Shown piece by piece: positions 1,671-59,610 of a DNA stretch of 64,000 bases. Origin of the DNA: Chiloscyllium plagiosum (lineage: Eukaryota). Location: assembly GCF_004010195.1 (NCBI RefSeq), contig NC_057718.1:103047566-103111565 (forward strand). The letters are read 5' to 3'. The translations under genes and the position numbers were made by a program. The stretch's first letter is position 1. Each line of letters opens with the position of its first letter. The notes beneath the pieces are model-generated. The model was not told the origin of the DNA. It was given only the letters and a program-made list of their open reading frames with translations, and did no database searches.

Positions 1671-1802
1671 CCTACACATCTACATCAGATCATGGAGCAA
1701 AATCACAATATGAAGCAAGGTATATTTATTAATCTAATTTGATAGAATGTTAAAAAACAAGGAACATGAGCATCAGCGGAGTTTATGAAGGGCTTATCAT
1801 AA

Positions 1803-3455
1803 AGTCATAGAGATGTACAGCATGGAAACAGACCCTTCAGTCCAACCCATCCATGCCGACCAGATATCCCAACTCAATCTAGTCCCACCTGCCAGCACCC
1901 GGCTCATATCCCTCCAAACCCTTCCTATTCATATACCCATCCAAATGCCTGTTACATGTTGCAATTGTAACAGCCTCCACCACTTCCTCTGGCAACTCAT
2001 TCCATACACACACCACCCTCTGTGTGAAAACGTTGCCCCTTAGGTCTCTTTTATATCTTTCCCTCTCACCCTAAACCTATAGTTCTGGCTCCCCCACCCC
2101 AGGGAAAAGACTTTGCCTATTTATCCTATCCATGCTCCTCATAATTTTGTAAACCTCTGTAACGTCACCTCTGTAACGTCACCTCTCAGCCTCCGACGCT
2201 CCAGGAAAAACAGCCCCAGCCTGTTCAGTCTCTCCCTGTAGCTCAGATCCTCCAACCCTGGCAACAACCTTGTAAATCTTTTCTGAACCCTTTCAAGTTT
2301 CACAACATCTTTCCGATAGGAAGGAGACCAGAATTGCACACAATATTCCAACAGTGGCCTAACCAATGTCCACAACATGACCTCCCAACTCCTGTACTCA
2401 GTACTCTGACCAATAAAGGAAAGCATACCAAACGCCTTCTTCACTATCCTATCTACCTGCAACTCCACTTTCAAGGAGCTATGATTCTGCACTCCATTGT
2501 CTCTTTGTTCAGTAACACTCCCTAGGACCTTACCATTAAGTGTATAAGTCCTGCTAAGATTTGCTTTCCCAAAATGCAGCACCACGCATTTATCTGAATT
2601 AAACTCCATCTGCCACTTCTCAGCCCATTGGCCCATCTGGTCCAGATCCTGTTGTAATCTGAGGTAACCCTCTTCGCTGTCCACTACACCTCAAATTTTG
2701 GTGTCATTTGCAAACTTATTAATTGTACCTCTTATGCTCGCACCCAAATCATTTATGTAAATGACAAAAAGTAGAGGACCCAGCACCGATCCTTGTGGCA
2801 CTCCACTGGTCACAGGCCTCTAGTCTGAAAACAACCCTCCTCCACCACCCTCTGTCTTCTACCTTTGAGCCAGTTCTCTATCCAAATGGCTAGTTCTCCC
2901 TGTATTCCATGAGATCTAACCTTGCTAATCAGTCTCCCATGGGGAAACTTATCAAACGCCTTACTGAAATCCATATAGATCACATCTACTGCTCTGCCCT
3001 CATCAATCCTCTTTGTTACTTCTTCAAAAAACTCCAAGTTTGTGAGACATGATTTCCCACGCACAAAGCCATGTTGACTATCCCGAATCAGTCCTTGCCT
3101 TTCCAAGTACATGTACATCCTGTCCCTCAGGATTCCCTCCAACAACTTGCCCACCACCGAGGTCAGGCTCACCGGTCTATAGTTCCCTGGCTTGTCTTTA
3201 CTGCCCTTCTTAAACAGTGGCACCACATTTGCCAACCTCCTGTCTTCCGGTACCTCACCTGTGACTATCGATGATACAAATATCTCAGCAAGAGACCCAG
3301 CAATCTCTAGTTTCCCACAGAGTTCTCGGGTACACCTGATCAGGTCCTGGCGATTTATCCACTTTTAACCGTTTCAAGACATCCAGCACTTCCTCCTCTG
3401 TAATCTGGAGTTTTTGCAAGATGTCACCATCTATTTCCCTACAGTCTATATTTTC
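1803..3455 (-). mobile_element. CR1-clade LINE (HER1-like), 5'-truncated, frameshifted ORF2 RT region plus 3' UTR
   Basis: ORFs with KSPGPD, PGNYRPVSLTSVVGKLLE, DFSKAFDK, WQMEFNSDKC, RPLLEYCVQFWSP, LERRRLRGD; CTATGACT-type tail. Confidence 0.95.
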
Positions 3456-23700: not shown

Positions 23701-26700
23701 GGCATCTGAGCACAGTGAGCAGCCAATGCCTTCAAAGATAGTAAACAGGAAAACTACTGGAGAAAATGCATATTAATATATTTTTTCTGAGTGCTCTCAG
23801 AATTGCAAGTTGTTATCCATGTGCAATCTTAGATCGTCATTATGATTAGATTAGATTCCCTACAGTGTGGAAACAGGCCCTTCGGCCCAACAAGTCCACA
23901 CCGACCCTCCGAAGAGCAACCCACTCAGACCCATTCCCCTACAATTACCCCTGACTAATGCACCTAACTCTATGGGCAAGTTAGCTTGGCCAATTCACCT
24001 GACCTATATTTGAATTATCTGAATTTAATAATTTTGAGCATGAATGCTACATTTGTTATTGCTGAAAAAAAGCTGTAGAGGATTTTTTTTAGGACAAAAC
24101 CTAATATTTATACTGTATTAGTGCTGATTGTTTGCCAAGTGGACTCTGCTCAGCAGAGGGGTTGTGGAAAATGTTACCAGCAAATAATGACTAACAGTCC
24201 GTGCTGTGACAGAAACAGAGAGATGGTGGTGCTGGATGTCTTGAAAAGTAGCTGAAAACGTGTTGCTGGAAAAGCGCAGCAGGTCAGGCAGCATCCAAGG
24301 AGTAGGAGAATCGATGTTTCGGGTATGAGCCCTTTTTCAGGAATTCCTGAAGAAGGGCTCATGCCCGAAACGTCGATTCTCCTGCTCCTTGGATGCTGCC
24401 TGACTTGCTGCGCTTTTCCAGCAACACATTTTCAGCTCTGATCTCCAGCATCTGCAGTCCTCACTTTCTCCTGTCTTGAAAAGTACAAAGGTAGATAAAT
24501 CCCCAGGACCAGATCATTGGTTAGGCCACTTTTGGAATATTGCATGCAATTCTGGTCTCCTTCCTATTGGAAAGATGTTGTGAAACTTGAAAGGGTTCAG
24601 AAAAGATTTACAAGGATGTTGCCAGGGTTGGAGGATTTGAGCTAAAGAGAGAAGTTGAATAGGCTGGGGCTCTTTACCCTGGAGCATCGGAGGCTGAGGG
24701 GTGAGCTTATAGAGGTTTATAAAATCATGAGGGGCAATGGATAGGGTAAATAGACAAAGTCTTTTCCCTGGGGTGGGGGAGTCCAGAGCTGGAGGGCATC
24801 GGTTTAGAGTGAGAGAGGAAGATGATATAGAGGGCAACTTTTTCACGCAGAGTATGGTGTGTGTATGGAATGAGCTGCTAGAGGAAGTGGGGGAGGCTGG
24901 TACAATTGCAACATTTAAAAGACATCTGGATGGGTATATGAATAGGAAGGGTTTGCAGGGAAATGGGCCAGGTGCTGGCAAGTGGGACTAGATTAAGTTG
25001 GGATATCTGGTCGGCATGGACGAGTTGGACCAAAGGGTCTGTTTCCGTGCTGTACATTTCCATGACAGTTAATTGCCAAAGTTTGCTTAAATTTTGAATC
25101 AGGCAGATGGATTCAGATTGTTCAAGGCTTTGCCCTGAAAAATGAACCAGCAAATGGATGTCAGCTGCTTTGTTGAGCTGAAACAGGCACTGTGCATTGA
25201 CATTATGTTCTTCCTGTCTGCGAGTACAGGCATCTGGTATACACAAGTGTGCCACACTCGAGCCCAAATGACAATCCTAAATATCATCTTCACTTGAAGT
25301 ACCGAAGTGAGAAAATTACTTCCAATTGTCAGGAATGGATTATAGTGTTTGGTTCACAATCAGCAATTCCAGATTCAATTGCATCACAGAAAGAAATCAC
25401 TCCTCAAAGTAGCATTAAACTTCAACATGGGAATAAAATGCAAAAGTGATACATGCACCATTCAACTGTGTTGCATTTGGAAATCAGATTGAATGACACA
25501 ACCTCCAAATCCTGGAAGTGAAACTTAATCCCATCTGAACAACATATGGGTCTTTATTATTTCATAGTAAGATTTTGATAAACTGTGCACAAAATTAAAA
25601 CCAATTGCTAACCTCTACCACCATTCTGCACAAAGACTAAAAACAAAAAACAGAGTCATAGAGTTTTTCAGCACAGAAATGGACCCTTCAGTCCAACTCG
25701 TCCACGCCAAGCAGATACTCTAAACTGATCTCGTCCCATTTAATAATTCCCATATCCCTCCAAACCTTTCTTATTCATGTACCCATCCAGATGCCTTTTA
25801 CATAGTTTTAGATTAGATTAGATTCCCTACAGTATGGTAACAGGCCATTCGGCCCAACAAGTCCATACCGACTCTTCGAAGTGAAACCCATTTCCCTCTG
25901 ACTAATGCACCTAACACTATGGGCAGTTTAGCATGGCCAATTCACCTAACTTGCACATCTTTGGATTGTGGGAGGAAATCGGAGCACCTGGAGGAAACCC
26001 ACGCAGACACGAGGAGAATGTGCAAACTCCATACAGTCACCTGAGGCTGGAATCGAACCCGGATCGCTGGCACTGTGAGGCAGCAATGCTAACCACTGAG
26101 CCACCATGCAGCCACGATGGCTGATAATGGGTCACAGTGGACAGGATTTCACACAATGCTGCAAAGATCAAGCTGCAAATTTAAAGCTTGTGTAATTTAG
26201 GAAAGTTCATAGAGCACAGGGATAGAACTTCAGCCTTAGACATGACATTTTGGATCAGCAGTAAGAGGTTTATCTCGGAGTTAGAACCGTGCAAGATGAA
26301 ACGAGAGTGTGGGGCTGGAAAAGCACAGCTGGTCAGGCAGCATCCGAGGAGCAGGAGAATCGACGCTTCAGGCATAAGCCTTTCTTCAGGAATTCCATAA
26401 GGCCTTCATCAGGCTTATGCCCAAAACGTTAACTCTCCTGCTCCTCGGATGCTGCCCGGTCCACTGTGCCTCTCCAGCACCACACTCGCGACTCTGATCT
26501 CCAGTGTCTGCAGCCCTCACTCTCTCCTCTTCCAATGCAAATTGAAGGCCCCACTTCAGAATTTGATTTGCTCATCTCATGTGACACTTTGTTCGAGGCC
26601 ACAATGGAATACTTCAAGTGTCCCTGAAGAAACCTTCACCTGAGATTGTTTGTTCTGGTGATTATAAGTAACTCCACGAGAATATACAAAAGAAATGTTG

Positions 26701-31983: not shown

Positions 31984-32208
31984 CCCGCCGCCTGCGATGA
32001 AAATAAAACCCCGCCGACACCGCCCCCTCCCCTTTAAGGGGCCGCTCCCCTTCACCCATTGGCTGGGGACAATGTCGACCGCCGTCGTCTATTGGCTGCG
32101 CCGTTGCTAGGGTTAGTCCCCGTCCCCTAGTAACTGTCCATCAAAGTTGGAAAGGACAAAACCTGGAATTGTTGGGGAAACTCAGCAGGTCTGACAGCAT
32201 CTAGAGTT

Positions 32209-32528
32209 ATAGATTCCCTACAGTGTGGAAACAGGCCATTTGGCCCAACAAGTCCATACCGACCCTCCGAAGAGTAACCCACCCAGACCCATCCCCCCCC
32301 ACCCTATATTTACCTCTGACCAATGCACCTGACCTACACATCCCTGGACACTATGGGCCAACTTCGCACGGCCAATTCACCTAACCTGCACATCTTTGGA
32401 ATCTGGGAGGAAACCCACGCAGACACAGGGAGGATGCGCAAACTCCACAAATTCCTGAGGCTGGAATTGCGCTCCGGTCCCTGGTGCTGTGAAGCAGCAA
32501 TGCTAACCACTGAGCCACCATACCACCC
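32209..32528 (-). mobile_element. V-SINE directly upstream of the ETAA1 promoter
   Basis: Family-typical tail, V-domain and tRNA head. Confidence 0.85.
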
Positions 32529-32532
32529 TAAA

Positions 32533-33760
32533 CACAGAGATGTACAGTACGGAAACTGACCCTTCAGAGCAACTCATCCATGCTGACCAGATATGCTAAG
32601 TAGTCTAGTTCCATTTACCAGCATTTGGCCCCTATCCTTCTAAACCCTTCCTATTCATATACCCATACAGATTCCTTTCAAATGTTATAATTGTACCAGC
32701 CTCCACCACTTCCTCTGGAAGCTCATTCCATACATGCACCACATTCTGCATGAAAAGGTTACCCCTCAGGTCCTTTTTAACTCTTGTCCCTCTCACCCTA
32801 AACCTGTGCCCTCTAACTCTGGACTCCCCCACTCCAGGGAAAAGACCTTGTCCATTTACCCTATCCATGCCCCTCATGATTTTATAAACCTCTGCAAGGT
32901 CACCCCTCAGCCTCCAATGCTCCAGGGAAAACAGCCCCAGTCTATTCACCAGAAGAGAAAATGCTGGAAAATCTCAACCTGTCTGGCTGCATCTGTAAGG
33001 AAAGAAAAGAGCTGACGTTTTGAGTCTAACTGACCCTTTGTTAAAGCTCAAAGTCTATTCAGCCTCTCCCTAAAACTCAAACCCTCCAACCCTGGCAACA
33101 TCCTTCTAAATCTTTTCTGAACCCTTTCAAGTTTTACAACATCCTTCCTATAGCAGAGAGACCAGAATTGGATGCAGTATTCCAGTGTCATAATAAATGT
33201 CCTACACAGCCGCAACATGACCTCCCAACTCCTACAGTCAATGCACTGTCCAATAAAGGCACATTTACAAATGCCTTCTTCACTATCCTGCCGACCTGGG
33301 ACTCCACTTTCGAGGAACTATGAACCTGCACCCCAAGGTCTTTTTGTTTAGCAACATTCCCCAGGACCTTACTATAAAGTGTATAAATACTGCTTTGCCC
33401 TGATTTGCGTTTCCAAAATGCAGGACTTTACATTTATCTAAATTGAATTCTATCTGCCTCCTCAGCCCATTGACCCATCTGATCAGGATCCCATTGTAAT
33501 CTGCAGTAACCTTCTTTGCTGTCCACTACACCACCAATTTTGTTGTCACCTGCAAACCTACTAACTATACATCCTATGTTCACATCCAAATCATTTATGT
33601 AAATGATAAAAACTAGTGGACCCAGCACCGATCCTTGTGGAACTCCACCGGTCACAGGCCTCCAGTCTGAAAAGCAACCCTCCATCACCACCCTCTGTCT
33701 TCTACCTTCAAACCAGTTCTGTATCCAAATTGCTAGCTCTCCTTGTACCCCATGTGATCT
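32533..33760 (-). mobile_element. CR1 LINE fragment with a short insert at 32949-33051
   Basis: [25 protein letters not shown] motifs and 3' UTR. Confidence 0.92.
32949..33051 (-). mobile_element. Family D short insert with 10-bp TSD; second copy at about 5983-6100
   Basis: AGTCTATTCA at 32939-32948 and 33052-33061 interrupts the CR1. Confidence 0.8.
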
Positions 33761-46319: not shown

Positions 46320-47585
46320 TAGAATCCCTACAGTGTGGAAGCAGGCTATTCAGCCCATCAGATCCACACCACACCAATAAAGAGCATCCTACTCAGACCC
46401 ACCCCGATACTATCCCTGTAACCTTGCATTCTACATGATAAATCCACCTAATCTGCACATAGATTAGATTAGATTCCCTACAGTGTGGAAACAGGCTCTT
46501 TGGCCCAACTAGTCCACACTGACCCTCCAAAGAGTAACCCACCCAGATCCACTCCCGTCTGACTAATGCACCTAACACTATGGGCAATTTAGCATGGCCA
46601 ATTCACCTGACTTGCACATAGAGTCATAGAGTCATAGAGATGTCCAGCACGGAAACAGACCCTTCAGTCCAGCCCGTCCATGCCGACCAGACACCCCATC
46701 CCAACCCAGTCCCACCTGCCAGCACCCAGCCCACATCCCTCCAAACCCCTCCCACTCATATACCCATCCAAATGCCTCCCAAATGTTCCAGCTGCACCAG
46801 CCTCCACCACATTCCCTGGCAGCTCACCCCACACACGCACCACCCTCTGCGTGAATAAGTTGCCCCCCAGGTCTCGTCCATATCTTTCCCCTCTCACCCC
46901 AAACCCATGCCCTCCAGTCTGGACTCCCCAACCCCAGGGAAAAGACTCCGTCCATTCATCCCACCCATGCCCCCCATAACCCTGCAAACCTCCATAAGGT
47001 CATCCCTCAGCCCCCGACGCCCCAGGGAAAACAGTCCCAGCCCGTCCAACCTTCCCTGTCGCCCAAATCCTCTAACCCTGGCAATATCTCTGCAAATCTC
47101 CTCTGAACCCCCTCAAGTCTCACAACATCCTTCTGACAGGAAGGAGACCAGCAATATTCCAACAGTGGCCCGAACAATGTCTGTCCAGCCGCAACATGAC
47201 CTCCCAACTCCTGCACTCAACACTCTGACCAATAAAGGAAAGCCTTCCTCACCATCCCATCCACCCGCGACTCCACCTTCAAGGAGCCACAAACCTGCAC
47301 TCCAAGGTCTCCTCACTCAGCAACACTCCCTAGGACCCCACCATTAAGTATACAAGTCCTGCTAAGATTTGCTTGCACATCCCTATGGGCCAATTTAGCA
47401 TGGCCAATCCACCCTAACCTGCACATCTCTGGGTGTGCGGGAGGAAACTGGAGCACCTGGAGGAAACCTACACAGACACGAGGAGAATGTGCAAACTCCA
47501 CATAGACAGTCACCTGAGGCTGGAATCGAACCCCAGTCCCTGGCGCTGGGAGGCAATGGTGCTAACCACTGCGCCATCATGCCAC
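46320..47585 (-). mobile_element. Nested cluster: older V-SINE interrupted by a truncated younger V-SINE (about 46460-46619) and a CR1 (46620-47374)
   Basis: The older SINE halves at 46320-46460 and 47375-47585 join at TGCACAT, which recurs at every junction. Confidence 0.75.
46620..47374 (-). mobile_element. 5'-truncated CR1 with A-to-G hypermutation on its sense strand
   Basis: Colinear with 1803-2570; (CTATGACT)n tail; CTTGCACAT at both flanks (46611-46619 and 47372-47380). Confidence 0.92.
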
Positions 47586-49816
47586 CCTACATTGTATCAA
47601 TCCCCTGACCCCCATTGCAAATGGGTGCTTGTGATTGTTGCTATCACAGCCCTGGGAGACTGAAGCAATAGGCCGCAGGTCTGGTCTGATATCAATAGTG
47701 GACCCTTCCAACCTTTGGTCCAGTTTACCGAGTGCCCCTGACCAACCTGTCTAATTGTCTGTGCTTTTGTATGAAACTACTAATGGCCAACAGCGTGGGA
47801 TCATTTTGTGCCAAGGCCTCAGTGGGTACCTGGTCTTTGATTGCCAGCGGCCTAGGCCGTTTCTTCCTTGGGCAGGCCTGGAGTGGTGTCGGGGAGGGGT
47901 TGACTGGTGTAAGGGTGTTCCCGGCTCTGAACTAGAATAAGGTGGCAATCTTTGAGCTAGCGGAGGATATGGGAGATTTGGTGTGAGGAGCTGTTGTGCC
48001 CAGGTGCTGCCCCCCCCCCCCCCCCCCCACCTTCAGGATGGGGCTTGTGTGGGTGTTGCTGGTGCCTGCATAGGTGAAGACAGGCCACTGGGGGGCATCT
48101 TGAGAATCTTGAGAGGGAGGTCAACCTGCCATTAGTGGTACAGCAATGCAGCTCAGCACAATGGAGGCTCCTCAGTTCGTTCCTCACAGAATAGATCCCC
48201 TCTTCACAGCAGCTCAAAAATCTTCTCCGCTGAGTGGATGAGGAGCTGAATTTCAGCCATCAACTCCCTACCGCTACATCCAACCATACGTATGCCCCCC
48301 CTCCCTCATCACCACCCCCATGTTAGGTCAGTATTTGTCATTTTCAAAACCTACTTCACTCCATGAAGCTGTCGGGTTTTGAAGTCAGACAATGGAAGTT
48401 GCATATCAATAGTCCATGTGCCATTATTGTAACAATTGCCTAATCTCTCCTCCTTGTGACACAATTCACATTTTACAATCGCAATCAACTATCAAATCCT
48501 GCTTTAATTTTTAAAAGATTATTTCGCAAGCATCTCTGGTTGGTTCAGTATTTATTACTTATCCCTAATTGCCCCTGGAGAGATTGGTAATGAGCTGCCT
48601 CCTTAAACCACCACGGCGTATTTGATTTGGGTACCCCACAATACTGTCAGGAAGGGGGCTCTGGGATTTTGACCCAGTGATAGCAAAGGAATCGTGATTT
48701 TATCCCAGGTCAGGATGGTGAGTGGTTTGGAGGGGAACTTGCAGGGGTGGTGTTCCCATGTTTCTGCTACTCTTGTCCTTCCAGATAGCAGATGGGTTTG
48801 GAATGAGTGCGGGTTCATAACTTCTGTGTCTACAGAGAACTGCAGATTGCTAGGATGAACTAAACATCACCCATCTCTTTAATTCTTTCTGTGGTAACCT
48901 ACATCTTGATATTGCTGCGTCCGACAGTAATTCTGATGTTAATGAAAAGCACTGTGACCTGATACACAGCGTCAGCCAGTTTGTCTAGCATTATAACACC
49001 ATTGGTTTTCGCCCCAAACTATTAGAAAGAACTGCCGAAAGCAACTAACAGATCAAAAAATGATTGATGAACACACTTGGGACTTATTAATATTCACATG
49101 ATTTACCCATCTGTTTACTGTGGGGTGTTTTGGCTCAGTAACTGGAGAATAATCAAACGCAACAAAAGCCTGGTTTGTGGAAAGCTAATTCTAGAAAACA
49201 TTAAAGGTTAGTAAGATAAATAGTTCAAGCAACAGAACATGTTTTATATTACTTATTAGCTCTTACTCCCATAATTGCACATAAATCTCAATCTAGTCAT
49301 CACGTCTCATATTTGAAATCTATCATTCACTTACATCCTCTGCGGATGCGAACTGCTTGTGAAAGTAATGTATTTCCATCTTTCAAGATATGAATGCGCC
49401 ATTAATTTTAAAAAGTCAGGATAGCATCACACTACTTGTTGTGATGCACATTGATTCTATCTCTCGCTTTTCGCTTTGTCTGTCACCAGTTAAAATCTGT
49501 GGCTGCTTTTCACACCATTCCCTCAAACAACACCTCGAGAGAAAAGCACATGAAGAGGTGATAGCTGTGATGAATATTCAAATGTTCTTTTCATTCCACT
49601 GATGAGTTCGACCATTATACCTCATCTGTGACTCCACCAGCTGCAAATATCAGTGTTTTCCATCATAACTGTACATGTAGGGGAGAAGGTGGCTTCATGG
49701 TGACCTGGTAATCCAGAGACACTGGCTAATTTAGTTCAAAGGGAATGGAATAGAAAAGTAGGGAGCATTTTGCTAAAACCATACAAGGTACTAGTCAGAT
49801 TGCAGCTGAAATACTG

Positions 49817-55660: not shown

Positions 55661-56436
55661 GCATTGAAAGAGAGTTTCGGGGATCAGTGATAAGCGTAGG
55701 GTTCCAGCTTAGTTTCAGTACGATGCTGGAGAGACTCAGCAGGTCAGGTAGTAAATGTCAGTCACATTGGACTCGAAACATTAACTCCCTCCATAGATGT
55801 TTCTCCAGCAATTTCGGTTTTGGTTACCGATTTCCAGCATCCAGTATTTTGCCTTTATTCCTTTGGGATTTTTTTCAGAACCTTGTTTAGGAATGAGCAT
55901 GATTTTAACGTCAGCCTGTATGGAATAAAGCCTCTGCTCAGTGGCTCCAATTTCTCTTCAGGATCTGATCAGTTTCCAATCTATGCCAACACCAAGCAAG
56001 AAGACTGAGGACTAGAGACATGACCAGCAGTGGGAGGGAGGGAGAGAGGGACAGGGAGGGACATTCTTTGGTAGATGATCATGGAGAGCACTTACTGGGA
56101 TCTGGGAACAGCACTAGGGGTCAGAGCAGGAGGACAAAATCAAGGGAATTAATCTCCAGCACAAAAAAAGGATAAACTCAAGCAAGTACCAACAAATTAA
56201 AATACAATGGATAGCAGAAAGTACAACGTGATCTCTAATTTAATAGAATCTTGTGCTATTTAAAGTCTTGAGAATGAACCTTGAGGTCGTTTAACACATG
56301 CAATGCCTCCATATATATATAAGACTTTAGGAATAGGAGTAAGCCACTTAGTGCCTTGGTCCATTCCGCCATTCAATGAGATTATGGGCTATTTATACTC
56401 ACAGAGTGGCATTTTTCATACCAGAGGGAATCTTAG

Positions 56437-57810
56437 AGTCATACAGTTATAGAGATGTACAGCACGGATACAGACCCTTCGGCCCAACTCATCCATATCG
56501 ACCCCTTATCCCAACCCAATCTAATCCCAACTGCCAGCACCTGGGCCATATCCCTCTAAACCCTTCCTATTCATATACCCATCCAGATGCCTTTTAAGTG
56601 TTGCAATCATACAAGCCTCCACCACTTCCTCTGGCAGCTCATTCCATACACGTACCACCCTCTGCATGAAAAAGTTGCCCCTTAGGTCCCTTTTATATCT
56701 TTCCCTCTCACCCTAAACCTATGCCCTCTAGTTCTGGACTCCCCCACCCCAGGGAAAAGATTTTGTCCATTTATCCTATCCATGCGCCTCATAATTTTAT
56801 AAACATCTATAAGGTCACCCCTCAGCCTTCGATGCTCCATGGAAAACAGCCCCAGCCCATTCAACCTCTCACTATAGTGAGAGGTTGAATGGGCTGGGGC
56901 TGTTTTCCATGGAGCATCGAAGGCTGAGGGGTGACCTTATAGATGTTTATAAAATTATGAGGCGCATGGATAGGATAAATGGACAAAATCTTTTCCCTGG
57001 GGTGGGGGAGTCCAGAACTAGAGGGCATAGGTTTAGGGTGAGAGGGAAAGATATAAAAGGGACCTAAGGGGCAACTTTTTCANNNNNNNNNNNNNNNNNN
57101 NNNNNNNNNNNNNNNNNNNNNNNNNNNNNNNNNNNNNNNNNNNNNNNNNNNNNNNNNNNNNNNNNNNNNNNNNNNNNNNNNNNNNNNNNNNNNNNNNNNN
57201 NNNNNNNNNNNNNNNNNNNNNNNNNNNNNNNNNNNNNNNNNNNNNNNNNNNNNNNNNNNNNNNNNNNNNNNNNNNNNNNNNNNNNNNNNNNNNNNNNNNN
57301 NNNNNNNNNNNNNNNNNNNNNNNNNNNNNNNNNNNNNNNNNNNNNNNNNNNNNNNNNNNNNNNNNNNNNNNNNNNNNNNNNNNNNNNNNNNNNNNNNNNN
57401 NNNNNNNNNNNNNNNNNNNNNNNNNNNNNNNNNNNNNNNNNNNNNNNNNNNNNNNNNNNNNNNNNNNNNNNNNNNNNNNNNNNNTCAAGATACTGTTGTA
57501 ATCTGAGGTAACCCTCTTCGCTGTCCACTACACCTCCAATTTTGGTGTCATCTGCAAATTTACTAACTATACCTCTTATGCTCACATCCAAATCATTTAT
57601 GTAAATGACAAAAAGTAGAGGACCCAGCACCGATCCTTGTGGCACTCCACTGGTCACAGGCCTCCAGTCTGAAAAACAACCCTCACCCACCCTCTGTCTT
57701 CAACCTTTGAGCCAGTTCTGTATCCAAATGGCTAGTTCTCCCTGTATTCCGTGAGATCTAACCTTGCTAATCAGTCTCCTATAGGGAACCTTGTTGAATG
57801 CCTTACTGAA
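56437..57810 (-). mobile_element. CR1 LINE spanning an assembly gap, including a fold-back copy at 56875-57082
   Basis: 3' UTR and ORF2 end before the gap; [25 protein letters not shown] after it, in the same orientation. Confidence 0.9.
57083..57484. other. Assembly gap (N run); a second gap lies at 58485-58984
   Basis: N characters. Confidence 1.
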
Positions 57811-58190: not shown

Positions 58191-59170
58191 ATCAGGGAAT
58201 TCCACATGTCCAGGATCGAACAGTCCTGTCAAAGGCAGAGCTCCTAATTGTGTTATCAATCGTCAAACCTCAGCAGCTCTGATGGCTCGGGTTAGTCCGC
58301 AGGATGGGAACAGACAGATACCCAGGATCTTGGGCAACTGGGTAGTATATGGAACCAGATGACCATGGGAGACACCCAAGGCTCTTGCTTCAAAGATGCT
58401 CACAGGCTGACAATGACAGCCTGAAACACTGCGCCTCACCCCTGGGAAGGGGGTCACTTGCTGTTGATAGGGTGAAATGGTGACNNNNNNNNNNNNNNNN
58501 NNNNNNNNNNNNNNNNNNNNNNNNNNNNNNNNNNNNNNNNNNNNNNNNNNNNNNNNNNNNNNNNNNNNNNNNNNNNNNNNNNNNNNNNNNNNNNNNNNNN
58601 NNNNNNNNNNNNNNNNNNNNNNNNNNNNNNNNNNNNNNNNNNNNNNNNNNNNNNNNNNNNNNNNNNNNNNNNNNNNNNNNNNNNNNNNNNNNNNNNNNNN
58701 NNNNNNNNNNNNNNNNNNNNNNNNNNNNNNNNNNNNNNNNNNNNNNNNNNNNNNNNNNNNNNNNNNNNNNNNNNNNNNNNNNNNNNNNNNNNNNNNNNNN
58801 NNNNNNNNNNNNNNNNNNNNNNNNNNNNNNNNNNNNNNNNNNNNNNNNNNNNNNNNNNNNNNNNNNNNNNNNNNNNNNNNNNNNNNNNNNNNNNNNNNNN
58901 NNNNNNNNNNNNNNNNNNNNNNNNNNNNNNNNNNNNNNNNNNNNNNNNNNNNNNNNNNNNNNNNNNNNNNNNNNNNNNNNNNNNGCCTCATAATAGTGGT
59001 AGTGGCAAGGTCAGTGAAGATTTGACAATGGAGCTGCATAGGTTCTTGTGAGGCAGGGGAATTCATGGTTATTGGGGATAGCTGGGAATGTAACATTCAC
59101 AACATCAATAAATCAGCCATGATCGTGTTGAGTGGCTGACTTTGGCACCCATCTCATTCGTCAGTTTCAT

Positions 59171-59610
59171 ATAGTCATAGAGCTGTACCGCACGGAAACA
59201 GACCTTTCAGTCCAACTCATTCATGCAGACCAGATATCCTAAATTAATTGAGTCCCATTTACCAGAATTTGGCCCATATCCCTCTAAATCCTTCCTATCA
59301 TATACCCAGACAGATGCCTTTTAAATGTTGCAATTGTACCAGTCTCCAGCCCTTCCTCTGGCAGCTCATTCCATACACGCGCCATCCTCTGCGTGAAAAG
59401 TTGCCCGTTAGGTCCCTTTTAAATCTTTCCCCTCTCACTCTAAACCTGTTCCCTCTAGTTCTGGACTTCCCCATCCTTGGGGAAAAGACCTTGTCTATTC
59501 ACCCTATCCATGCCCCTCATGATTTTATAAACCTCTATAAGGTCACCCCTCAGCCTCTGATGCTCCAGGGAAAACAACCCCAGCCTACCCAGCCTCTCCC
59601 TATATAGCCA
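59171..59610 (-). mobile_element. CR1 3' fragment
   Basis: Similar to 1803-2240. Confidence 0.9.

What the first reader, a model, noticed from the sequence alone, without database searches (positions are those of the whole stretch)
46620..47374. CR1 LINE copy with about 60 strand-specific A-to-G changes: candidate genomic fossil of an ADAR hyper-edited RNA
Seen: against sister copies here (1803-2570, 56437-56874, 59171-59610) this copy differs mostly by T>C on the + strand, i.e. A>G on the LINE sense strand. I count roughly 60 in about 670 nt by eye. Examples: cttcctattc>cctcccactc, cattccatac>caccccacac, ccccttagg>ccccccagg, ccctaaacctat>ccccaaacccat, aattttgtaa>aaccctgcaa, cttcactatcctatctacctg>cctcaccatcccatccacccg. 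Changed Ts are mostly followed by A or T and TC is mostly spared, so changed As have a 5' U/A neighbour and GA is avoided. The last ~70 nt at the 3' end look largely unchanged. Established: ADARs hyper-edit long dsRNA, prefer 5' U/A over G, and inosine is copied as G by reverse transcriptase; neutral decay (CpG C>T) and APOBEC (G>A) give different spectra. Inference: an A-to-I hyper-edited transcript was retrotransposed in the germ line, so RNA editing was written back into DNA, possibly a trace of ADAR acting on LINEs in sharks.
Basis: partly seen in the sequence, partly recalled or inferred. Interest (0 to 1): 0.85.

Follow-up and report, generated by a model that had tools for sequence, protein, structure and literature searches.

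The report
ADAR-edited LINE copy fossilised in DNA
A dead copy of a jumping gene in a cartilaginous-fish chromosome carries 68 A-to-G changes on one strand, in the pattern left by the RNA-editing enzyme ADAR, so a heavily edited RNA was most likely copied back into inherited DNA.

Summary
Against the majority state of 67 sister copies, the copy at 46617-47374 has 68 T>C on the + strand, which is A>G on the LINE sense strand. That is 68 of 196 positions, against 3 of 196 for the reverse-strand type and 25 other differences, which is ordinary background. Full-length sisters have 0-10 T>C.

- **Private changes:** sisters carry C at a median of 1.5% of these sites, and the best other genome match is 83-87% identical.
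- **Confined to the insertion:** the flanks show T>C at 6 of 71 positions.
- **ADAR neighbour rule:** the edited fraction is U 0.64, A 0.51, C 0.17, G 0.14 by 5' neighbour (p = 1e-8). A 3' G helps. Ordinary A>G changes in the sisters do not show this pattern.
- **Normal insertion:** the copy is 5'-truncated, has an 8-nt-repeat tail and is bracketed by a 9-nt direct repeat.
- **Two more edited copies:** L025 has 42 edits and L072 has 48, in sharply bounded internal clusters.

ADAR hyper-editing of LINE RNA before retrotransposition is the best reading (about 0.85). Three things were not done. This scan noted a similar ADAR fossil once before, in another genome (e1-7810917).

The parts
46617..47374 (-). 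5'-truncated copy (about 755 nt) of a very abundant CR1-like LINE. It covers the end of the ORF2 RT, the C-terminal region and the 3' end. This is the hyper-edited copy Q.
   Evidence: alignment with sisters. (RVT_1 frames on the minus strand of sisters L005 and L006).
46650..47353 (-). Span that holds all 68 sense-strand A>G changes (T>C on the + strand). This is 38% of the A sites in the span.
46617..46639 (-). LINE 3' tail: about 2.9 units of the 8-nt repeat CTCTATGA, with no poly(A).
   Evidence: the same tail in 20 sisters shown.
46611..46619 (.). Left copy of the 9-nt direct repeat CTTGCACAT at the 3' junction. Its last 3 nt may belong to the LINE tail.
   Evidence: Read, with the tail comparison.
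47372..47380 (.). Right copy of the 9-nt direct repeat CTTGCACAT at the 5' junction. Its first 3 nt also match the LINE. This is a target-site duplication of 3-9 bp with junction microhomology.
   Evidence: Read, compared with sister 1797-2566.
46455..46616 (-). 3' part of the SINE-like repeat into which Q inserted. It serves as the left-flank control: T>C at 1 of 35 positions.
47381..47590 (-). 5' part of the same SINE-like repeat. It serves as the right-flank control: T>C at 5 of 36 positions, partly SINE-subfamily variants shared with L034.
   Evidence: ARAGORN and Rfam call no tRNA there.
1797..3056 (-). Unedited sister copy in the window, used as a comparator (sense A>G 6, T>C 3).
56435..56877 (-). 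Unedited sister copy, used as a comparator. Its inner part is one arm of a perfect 208-nt palindrome (56667-57082).
59167..59604 (-). Unedited sister copy, used as a comparator.

Best explanation
A transcript of this CR1-like LINE formed a long duplex with an antisense LINE sequence. The partner was not identified and may have acted in cis or in trans. An ADAR enzyme deaminated about 38% of the adenosines over at least 700 nt to inosine. The LINE reverse transcriptase then used this RNA as template at a nick in a SINE-like repeat. It read inosine as G, stopped short (5' truncation) and left a dead copy carrying 68 A>G changes on its sense strand. The copy has since aged like its sisters, so it is inherited DNA.

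Shown here: the spectrum, the strand, the neighbour context, the privacy of the changes, their restriction to the insertion, the insertion hallmarks, and two further copies with bounded clusters.

Inferred: that the agent was ADAR, that it acted on RNA before integration, and what the duplex partner was.
For: 1. **Spectrum.** Q has 68 T>C of 196 sites against 3 A>G of 196, plus 25 other differences. The 58 full-length sisters have a mean of 3.5 T>C and a maximum of 10.
2. **Strand.** The RT frames are on the minus strand, so the changes are A>G on the RNA template strand.
3. **5' neighbour.** Edited fractions are U 29/45, A 23/45, C 6/35, G 10/69 (p = 1.1e-8). Pooled over the edited regions of Q and L025, 5' G sites are edited at 17/99 against 92/173 for other sites (p = 4e-9).
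4. **3' neighbour.** Within WA sites, a 3' G gives 35/44 edited against 47/84 otherwise (p = 0.011). This matches the ADAR motif of G depleted upstream and enriched downstream (Porath 2014 PMC4365171; review PMC8586724; passages read).
5. **Context control.** Ordinary sense A>G changes in 67 sisters show no such bias. Their rate is highest at 5' G: 2.75% against 1.4-1.7%.
6. **Private changes.** Sisters have C at a median of 1.5% of the 68 sites and at no site above 14%. The best other genome matches are 83% (40 scored of 16,383 candidates), 86% (40 of 1,874) and 87% (40 of 4,782).
7. **Confined to the insertion.** The flanks have T>C at 6 of 71 positions against 68 of 196 in Q (p = 1e-5).
8. 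**Insertion hallmarks.** The copy has the 8-nt-repeat tail, a 5' truncation and a 9-nt direct repeat.
9. **Recurrence.** L025 has 42 A>G, 41 of them within nt 207-519 from the 3' end and none in the last 200 nt. L072 has 48 A>G against 6 T>C, with 44 in two clusters. Both show the same 5' preference. Q and L025 share 24 edited sites against 19.3 expected from context, and only 2 other derived states, so they are separate events.
10. **Enzyme family present.** The genome has A_deamin (PF02137) exons at 6 loci.
11. **Age.** Q's non-edit divergence is 25 of 755, within the sisters' range of 20-57.
Against: - No raw-read or second-individual confirmation: read laying was lost.
- No duplex partner was found. 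The LINE's 3' 1.27 kb has no self-complementarity beyond 9-12 nt. No inverted copy lies within about 8 kb of Q. In any case the relevant locus is the unknown source.
- The 3'-neighbour effect is not significant over all A sites (p = 0.26 pooled).
- The two extra copies were found with T>C-rich queries. They therefore say nothing about whether clusters on the opposite strand also exist.
- In the unbiased material held (118 HSPs; 10,773 pairs), no further edited copy of either strand type appeared. The frequency is low and was not measured.
- 4 of L072's 48 sites are shared with the normal copy L076, and the majority reference is weakly supported 5' of about nt 870.
- ADAR activity on this LINE in the germ line of this animal was not shown.
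Confidence: 0.85

Rival explanations
1. The reverse transcriptase misincorporated dC opposite template A during one aberrant round of cDNA synthesis, for example under a dTTP-poor, dCTP-rich pool. No RNA editing was involved.
For: It would also give sense-strand A>G confined to the insertion. Hypermutation by biased dNTP pools is known for retroviral RTs (recalled, not read here).
Against: The 5' U/A preference and 5' G avoidance match ADAR. By inference, excess dCTP should favour extension when the next template base is G, which is the opposite of what is seen. In L025 and L072 the clusters are bounded inside a single cDNA, with 200-400 unedited nt on the 3' side and unedited stretches on the 5' side. 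A pool imbalance during one continuous synthesis does not explain that.
Confidence: 0.05
2. Strand-coordinated clustered mutation of the DNA after insertion, for example error-prone repair synthesis with a WA preference.
For: A WA preference is also recalled for polymerase eta. The clusters in L025 and L072 are internal, so insertion boundaries do not argue against this rival for those two copies.
Against: 68 of the 70 changes at A sites in Q are transitions (T>A 1, T>G 1), whereas polymerase-eta spectra are recalled to contain many transversions. 35% of all A sites changed over 700 nt. In Q the changes stop at the insertion ends. Ordinary A>G substitutions in 67 sisters lack the context.
Confidence: 0.04
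3. An assembly or sequencing artefact, or RNA-derived sequence that entered the assembly.
Against: The copy lies inside a chromosome-scale contig, between two halves of one SINE-like repeat, with a direct repeat at the junctions. Errors would not follow an ADAR neighbour rule. Three loci on three contigs show the pattern.
Confidence: 0.04
4. An ordinary G-rich (C-rich on the + strand) subfamily of the LINE, or retained ancestral CpG states.
For: None found.
Against: No other copy is more than 87% identical over any tested part of Q. Sisters have C at a median of 1.5% of the sites. Only 6 of the 68 sites are in a possible CpG context, and sisters have C at 0-14% of those.
Confidence: 0.02

Closest known systems
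ADAR A-to-G hypermutation of retroviral RNA fixed in proviral DNA (RAV-1, Felder 1994; avian leukosis virus, Hajjar and Linial 1995; HTLV-2 and STLV-3 in culture), as summarised in the review PMC8586724 (passages read)
   Same: RNA-level A-to-I on a duplexed template. Reverse transcriptase writes G. The changes are clustered, strand-specific A>G with 5' G avoidance.
   Different: Here the template is a non-LTR LINE copied by target-primed reverse transcription. The product is an old, inherited genomic copy and not a provirus in infected cells. There are three separate loci.
APOBEC3 G-to-A 'DNA editing' of retrotransposons fixed in vertebrate genomes (Knisbacher and Levanon 2015, PMC4866542; passages read)
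   Same: Hypermutated retroelement copies that still integrated and became genomic fossils. They are detectable by comparing a copy with its family.
   Different: A different enzyme, substrate (minus-strand cDNA, not RNA) and mutation type. That screen used A-to-G only as the direction control.
Hyper-edited RNA clusters in transcriptomes (Porath, Carmi and Levanon 2014, PMC4365171; passages read)
   Same: Dense A>G clusters, G depleted upstream and enriched downstream, and a dependence on long dsRNA from oppositely oriented repeats.
   Different: Those are differences between RNA and DNA. Here the changes are in the DNA itself.
Searches for editing in new retrotransposition events in human cells: L1 RNA (Orecchini 2016, PMC5224506) and de novo Alu inserts (Wagstaff 2012, PMC3415434)
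   Same: They ask the same question: does edited RNA get retrotransposed?
   Different: Both reported no editing (passages read). The present copies are natural positive cases in another vertebrate and another LINE clade.
   Same: The same proposed chain: ADAR on LINE-borne RNA, then reverse transcription into the genome.
   Different: There the duplex was a nested inverted-repeat transposon inside the element. Here no internal duplex exists. That note was not checked here.

Membership tests
ADAR hyper-editing footprint | One mismatch type, A>G, on a single strand, at high density | tested here: met
   68 A>G against 3 of the complementary type. 38% of the A sites in the span are changed.
ADAR hyper-editing footprint | 5' neighbour preference U/A over C/G, with G depleted | tested here: met
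   U 0.64, A 0.51, C 0.17, G 0.14 (p = 1.1e-8). The same holds in L025 and L072. It is absent from ordinary A>G changes in the sisters.
ADAR hyper-editing footprint | 3' neighbour G enriched | tested here: inconclusive
   Within WA sites, 35/44 against 47/84 (p = 0.011). Over all A sites the effect is not significant (p = 0.26).
ADAR hyper-editing footprint | A long dsRNA partner for the edited stretch | not testable with these tools
   The source locus is unknown. The LINE's 3' 1.27 kb has no internal complementarity beyond 12 nt. The bounded clusters in L025 and L072 fit duplexes of about 170-310 bp.
ADAR hyper-editing footprint | The enzyme is encoded by the host and acts on this RNA | tested here: inconclusive
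   A_deamin (PF02137) exons lie at 6 loci. Activity on this LINE was not tested.
Retrotransposed LINE copy (target-primed reverse transcription) | An intact 3' end with the family's tail, 5' truncation, and a target-site duplication | tested here: met
   The tail (CTCTATGA)n is as in 20 sisters. The copy ends 755 nt from the 3' end while sisters run on. A 9-nt direct repeat brackets it. No clear duplication was seen at L025.
CR1-clade LINE | ORF2 reverse transcriptase | tested here: met
   RVT_1 hits with E = 7.4e-22 and 2.3e-8 on the sense strand of sisters.
CR1-clade LINE | 3' end made of short (8-nt) direct repeats without poly(A) | tested here: met
   That this feature marks the CR1 clade is recalled, not read here.
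CR1-clade LINE | Phylogenetic placement of the RT, and an APE endonuclease domain | not tested
   The loci held reach only about 2.2 kb from the 3' end.

The most novel reading that the evidence does not exclude
ADAR hyper-editing is a recurrent germ-line event on the RNA of an active CR1-like LINE family in cartilaginous fish. Hyper-edited RNAs are not all destroyed or retained: some remain templates for retrotransposition. The genome would then hold a population of edited fossils that record ADAR specificity and the dsRNA partners of LINE transcripts over deep time. ADAR would be a second, RNA-level hypermutator of retroelements alongside APOBEC.
Probability: 0.45. Interest if true: 0.8.

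Novelty: new variant of a known kind. Interest (0 to 1): 0.7.

Why it matters
It is direct sequence evidence that RNA editing can be written back into heritable DNA through a LINE. It also shows that ADAR meets retrotransposition-competent LINE RNA in vivo. Cell-culture studies looked for editing in L1 RNA and in new Alu inserts and found none (PMC5224506, PMC3415434; passages read). Published genome screens for edited retroelements that I could read counted only the APOBEC type (PMC4866542).

Three copies turned up from a handful of searches, which suggests that a genome-wide screen is feasible. Such a screen would measure how often this happens, on which strand, and in which families. It would also show whether ADAR contributes to LINE restriction or to LINE diversification in early-branching vertebrates.

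In ten full-text searches of the held library I found no description of ADAR-type hyper-edited LINE copies in a germ line. Subscription journals are mostly not held, and Carmi et al. 2011 could not be read.

Tried and rejected
- **Raw-read check.** The look-up of sequencing runs listed 24 runs. Nothing was laid, and the listed word shares are not used as evidence of anything.
- **Unbiased genome sample.** No genome-wide frequency or strand test could be made.
- **Searches with pieces of Q.** Queries 46930-47070 and 46690-46935 found no co-edited copy (nine loci checked).
- **Whole-L025 query.** It found none either (27 new loci).
- **Cluster-only queries.** The query with L025's cluster found L072. 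The query with L072's cluster found no further edited copy: L076-L080 show scattered A>G counts of 14, 4, 16, 11 and 3 in their main HSPs (scatter read site by site for L076 only). L073 is likewise not edited (10 scattered).
- **All-against-all comparison.** In all held DNA (10,773 HSPs of at least 150 nt), only Q and L025 were flagged recurrently.
- **Shared descent of Q and L025.** Rejected. They share 24 edited sites against 19.3 expected from context, and only 2 other derived states.
- **Retained CpG states.** Rejected.
- **Internal hairpin of the LINE RNA as the ADAR substrate.** Rejected for the 3' 1.27 kb.
- **tRNA origin of the flanking SINE-like repeat.** Neither ARAGORN nor Rfam calls one.
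- **The ~50-nt similarity between the two flanks.** I first read it as a long target duplication or a template switch. It is better explained by a SINE variant with two tandem units, like L034 and window 32210, plus a short direct repeat.

Full report
**What is at the coordinates.**
The stretch 46620-47374 (Q) matches many other stretches of the window: 1797-2566, 56435-56867, 59167-59601, 24510-25066 on the other strand, and others. It also matches a very large family in the window's own 3.56-Gb genome, with 16,383 first-look candidates of which 40 were scored.

In sister copies the strand opposite to the window's + strand carries reading frames that hit Pfam RVT_1 (E = 7.4e-22 and 2.3e-8). 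These continue into a C-terminal region and a short 3' end.

The family ends in two to three units of an 8-nt repeat (CTCTATGA) and has no poly(A) (20 sisters shown). I recall that feature as typical of CR1-type LINEs, but the clade was not placed by phylogeny. Earlier notes of this scan call the genome a shark or cartilaginous fish (unchecked).

**Insertion anatomy.**
Q keeps the family's 3' tail (46617-46639). It stops 755 nt from the 3' end, while sisters run on. It sits inside a SINE-like repeat whose two parts lie at 46455-46616 and 47381-47590.

The same 9 nt (CTTGCACAT) stand at both junctions (46611-46619 and 47372-47380). Three of them at each end could also be LINE sequence, so the target duplication is 3-9 bp. 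The ~50-nt likeness between the two flanks is best explained by a SINE variant with two tandem units. Variants of that kind occur at window 32210 and in L034.

**The substitution spectrum.**
I aligned Q with 29 genome sisters and 4 window copies. Later I used 70 rows. Each row was compared with the majority state of the others.

| Row | T>C (+ strand) | A>G (+ strand) | Other differences |
|---|---|---|---|
| Q | 68 of 196 majority-T positions | 3 of 196 majority-A positions | 22 (25 counting the 3 A>G), of 755 aligned |
| 58 full-length sisters | mean 3.5, SD 2.1, max 10 | – | total differences 20-57 |
| L025 | 42 | – | – |
| Window 24510-25066 (old copy) | 16 | 17 | 155 differences in all |

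Only Q and L025 exceed the sisters' range in a one-sided way. The window copy at 24510-25066 is old and symmetric. The strand asymmetry in Q gives a binomial p of 5e-17. On the LINE sense strand the changes are A>G.

**Neighbour context.**
The table gives edited sites over all A sites for each 5' neighbour on the sense strand.

| Set | U | A | C | G | Test |
|---|---|---|---|---|---|
| Q | 29/45 | 23/45 | 6/35 | 10/69 | chi-square p = 1.1e-8 |
| Ordinary A>G in 67 sisters | 1.74% | 1.61% | 1.43% | 2.75% | no U/A preference |

Pooled over the edited spans of Q and L025, 5' G sites are edited at 17 of 99 against 92 of 173 for the rest (p = 4e-9). Within U/A-preceded sites, a 3' G raises editing to 35 of 44 against 47 of 84 (p = 0.011). 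Over all A sites the 3' effect is not significant.

This is the published ADAR motif. U and A are preferred over C and G upstream, G is depleted upstream, and G is enriched downstream (passages read in PMC8586724 and PMC4365171). The sisters' ordinary A>G changes run the other way, with the highest rate at 5' G, so the context is not a general mutational bias of this sequence.

**Controls on direction, privacy and place.**
- At the 68 sites, sisters carry C at a median of 1.5%. Four sites exceed 10% and none exceeds 14%. Only 6 sites are in a possible CpG context, and sisters have C at 0-14% of those. So T is ancestral and the changes are private to Q.
- No other genomic copy shares them. The best non-self matches are 83% for all of Q, 86% for 46930-47070 and 87% for 46690-46935.
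- In the SINE-like flanks, T>C is 1 of 35 on the left and 5 of 36 on the right. Several of the right-flank changes are variants shared with L034. The contrast with 68 of 196 in Q gives Fisher p = 1e-5. The flank sample rests on only 8 sister SINEs.

**Further edited copies.**
- **L025 (contig C21)** came up among the 40 best matches to Q. It has 42 sense A>G, and 41 of them lie within nt 207-519 from the LINE 3' end. None lies in the last 200 nt and none in nt 560-720. It shows the same 5' preference. Its best other matches are 89%. It is truncated at a different point, about 725 nt, and has no clear target duplication.
- **Q and L025 are separate events.** They share 24 edited sites against 19.3 expected from context alone (permutation p = 0.04). 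They share only 2 other derived states.
- **L072 (contig C10)** came up with a query made of L025's cluster alone. It has 48 sense A>G against 6 T>C, with 17 in nt 427-595 and 27 in nt 757-966. Its 5' neighbours are U 13/66, A 20/79, C 9/74 and G 6/119. Four of its 48 sites also occur in the normal copy L076. The majority reference is only 50-60% supported 5' of about nt 870. Its count is therefore a little soft.
- **No others.** Other loci from these searches are not edited.
- **Limit of this evidence.** Both extra copies were found with T>C-rich queries, so they cannot show that clusters on the opposite strand are absent. In the material not chosen for it, nothing else stands out on either strand. 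That material was 118 HSPs against the majority reference and 10,773 pairwise HSPs.

**Mechanism and rivals.**
The simplest chain has three steps. LINE sense RNA was duplexed with antisense LINE sequence. ADAR deaminated the preferred adenosines. The LINE RT then copied inosine as G during target-primed insertion.

The evidence here establishes the spectrum, strand, context, privacy, confinement, insertion hallmarks and recurrence. The enzyme, the RNA stage and the partner are inferred.

The partner is not inside the LINE's 3' 1.27 kb. The longest self-complementary match is 9-12 nt in three sisters, and the longest predicted helix is 14 bp. It was therefore an antisense copy in cis or in trans.

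The family is abundant in both orientations. The window even holds a perfect 208-nt palindrome of LINE sequence next to a LINE 3' end (56667-57082). If that palindrome is real, it shows the kind of hairpin that would be an ideal substrate. The genome encodes A_deamin domains at 6 loci.

- **RT misincorporation under a biased dNTP pool** would not give the ADAR context. It also does not fit clusters bounded inside one cDNA.
- **A DNA-level clustered process** does not fit a spectrum with 68 of 70 changes at A being transitions. It does not fit the density either, or the stop at the insertion ends in Q.
- **A subfamily or retained CpGs** are excluded as far as the searches reach.
- **An assembly artefact** is unlikely given the junctions, the context and three loci, but it was not tested directly.

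**Age.**
Q differs from the majority at 25 of 755 positions apart from the edits, within the sisters' range. It is therefore as old as the family's main burst and is inherited DNA. This step is inference.

**What is known.**
ADAR-type A>G hypermutation fixed by reverse transcription is described for avian retroviruses, and for HTLV-2 and STLV-3 in culture (review PMC8586724, passage read). Genome screens for edited retroelements that I could read count the APOBEC G>A type and use A>G as the direction control (PMC4866542). A survey of genomic traces saw no A>G excess in high-quality DNA traces (PMC2873906).

In human cells no editing was found in L1 RNA (PMC5224506) or in 52 kb of de novo Alu inserts (PMC3415434). 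A mild A>G excess in one endogenous MMTV lacked the ADAR context (PMC12548423).

Ten full-text searches found no report of ADAR-type hyper-edited LINE copies in a germ line. Most subscription journals are not held, and Carmi et al. 2011 could not be read. This scan noted a similar case once, in another genome (e1-7810917; not checked here).

**What could not be done.**
As a result there is no read-level or cross-species check.

**Verdict.**
I rate it a new variant of a known kind: ADAR hypermutation written into DNA, here through a non-LTR LINE in the germ line, and recurrent at three or more loci. Interest is 0.7.

Noticed in passing
L025:1501-2225 (G000 contig C21): Second hyper-edited copy of the same LINE. 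It has 42 sense A>G, and 41 of them lie in nt 207-519 from the 3' end. The last 200 nt are unedited. It shows the same 5' U/A preference and is truncated at about 725 nt.
   Followed up: yes
L072:1313-2557 (G000 contig C10): Third hyper-edited copy. It has 48 sense A>G against 6 T>C, in two bounded clusters (nt 427-595 and 757-966). Four of the sites are shared with the normal copy L076.
   Followed up: partly
window 56667-57082: A perfect palindrome with 208-nt arms, 100% complementary and with no spacer. It is made of LINE sequence (about nt 232-443 from the 3' end) and is followed on the minus strand by the LINE 3' end. It is either a fold-back insertion that would give a perfect hairpin RNA, or an assembly artefact.
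   Followed up: partly
window 46455-46616 and 47381-47590; L034:2715-3140; window 32200-32545: The SINE-like repeat around Q exists in variants with one to at least four tandem ~50-nt units. About 45 nt of its 3' region resemble the LINE's 3' end (80% to L015:1524-1569 and L004:2199-2244). This suggests a SINE/LINE partner pair. ARAGORN and Rfam call no tRNA in its head.
   Followed up: partly
L032:2917-3141 and L042:2879-3130: Older LINE fragments with an excess of sense-strand G>A (16 of 29 and 20 of 43 differences). They may be APOBEC-like, or may reflect subfamily differences from the young-family reference.
   Followed up: no
G000 contigs C17, C51, C7, C32, C5, C41: Exon-wise matches to the A_deamin domain (PF02137) lie at six loci, consistent with several ADAR/ADAD/ADAT1-type genes.
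   Followed up: no
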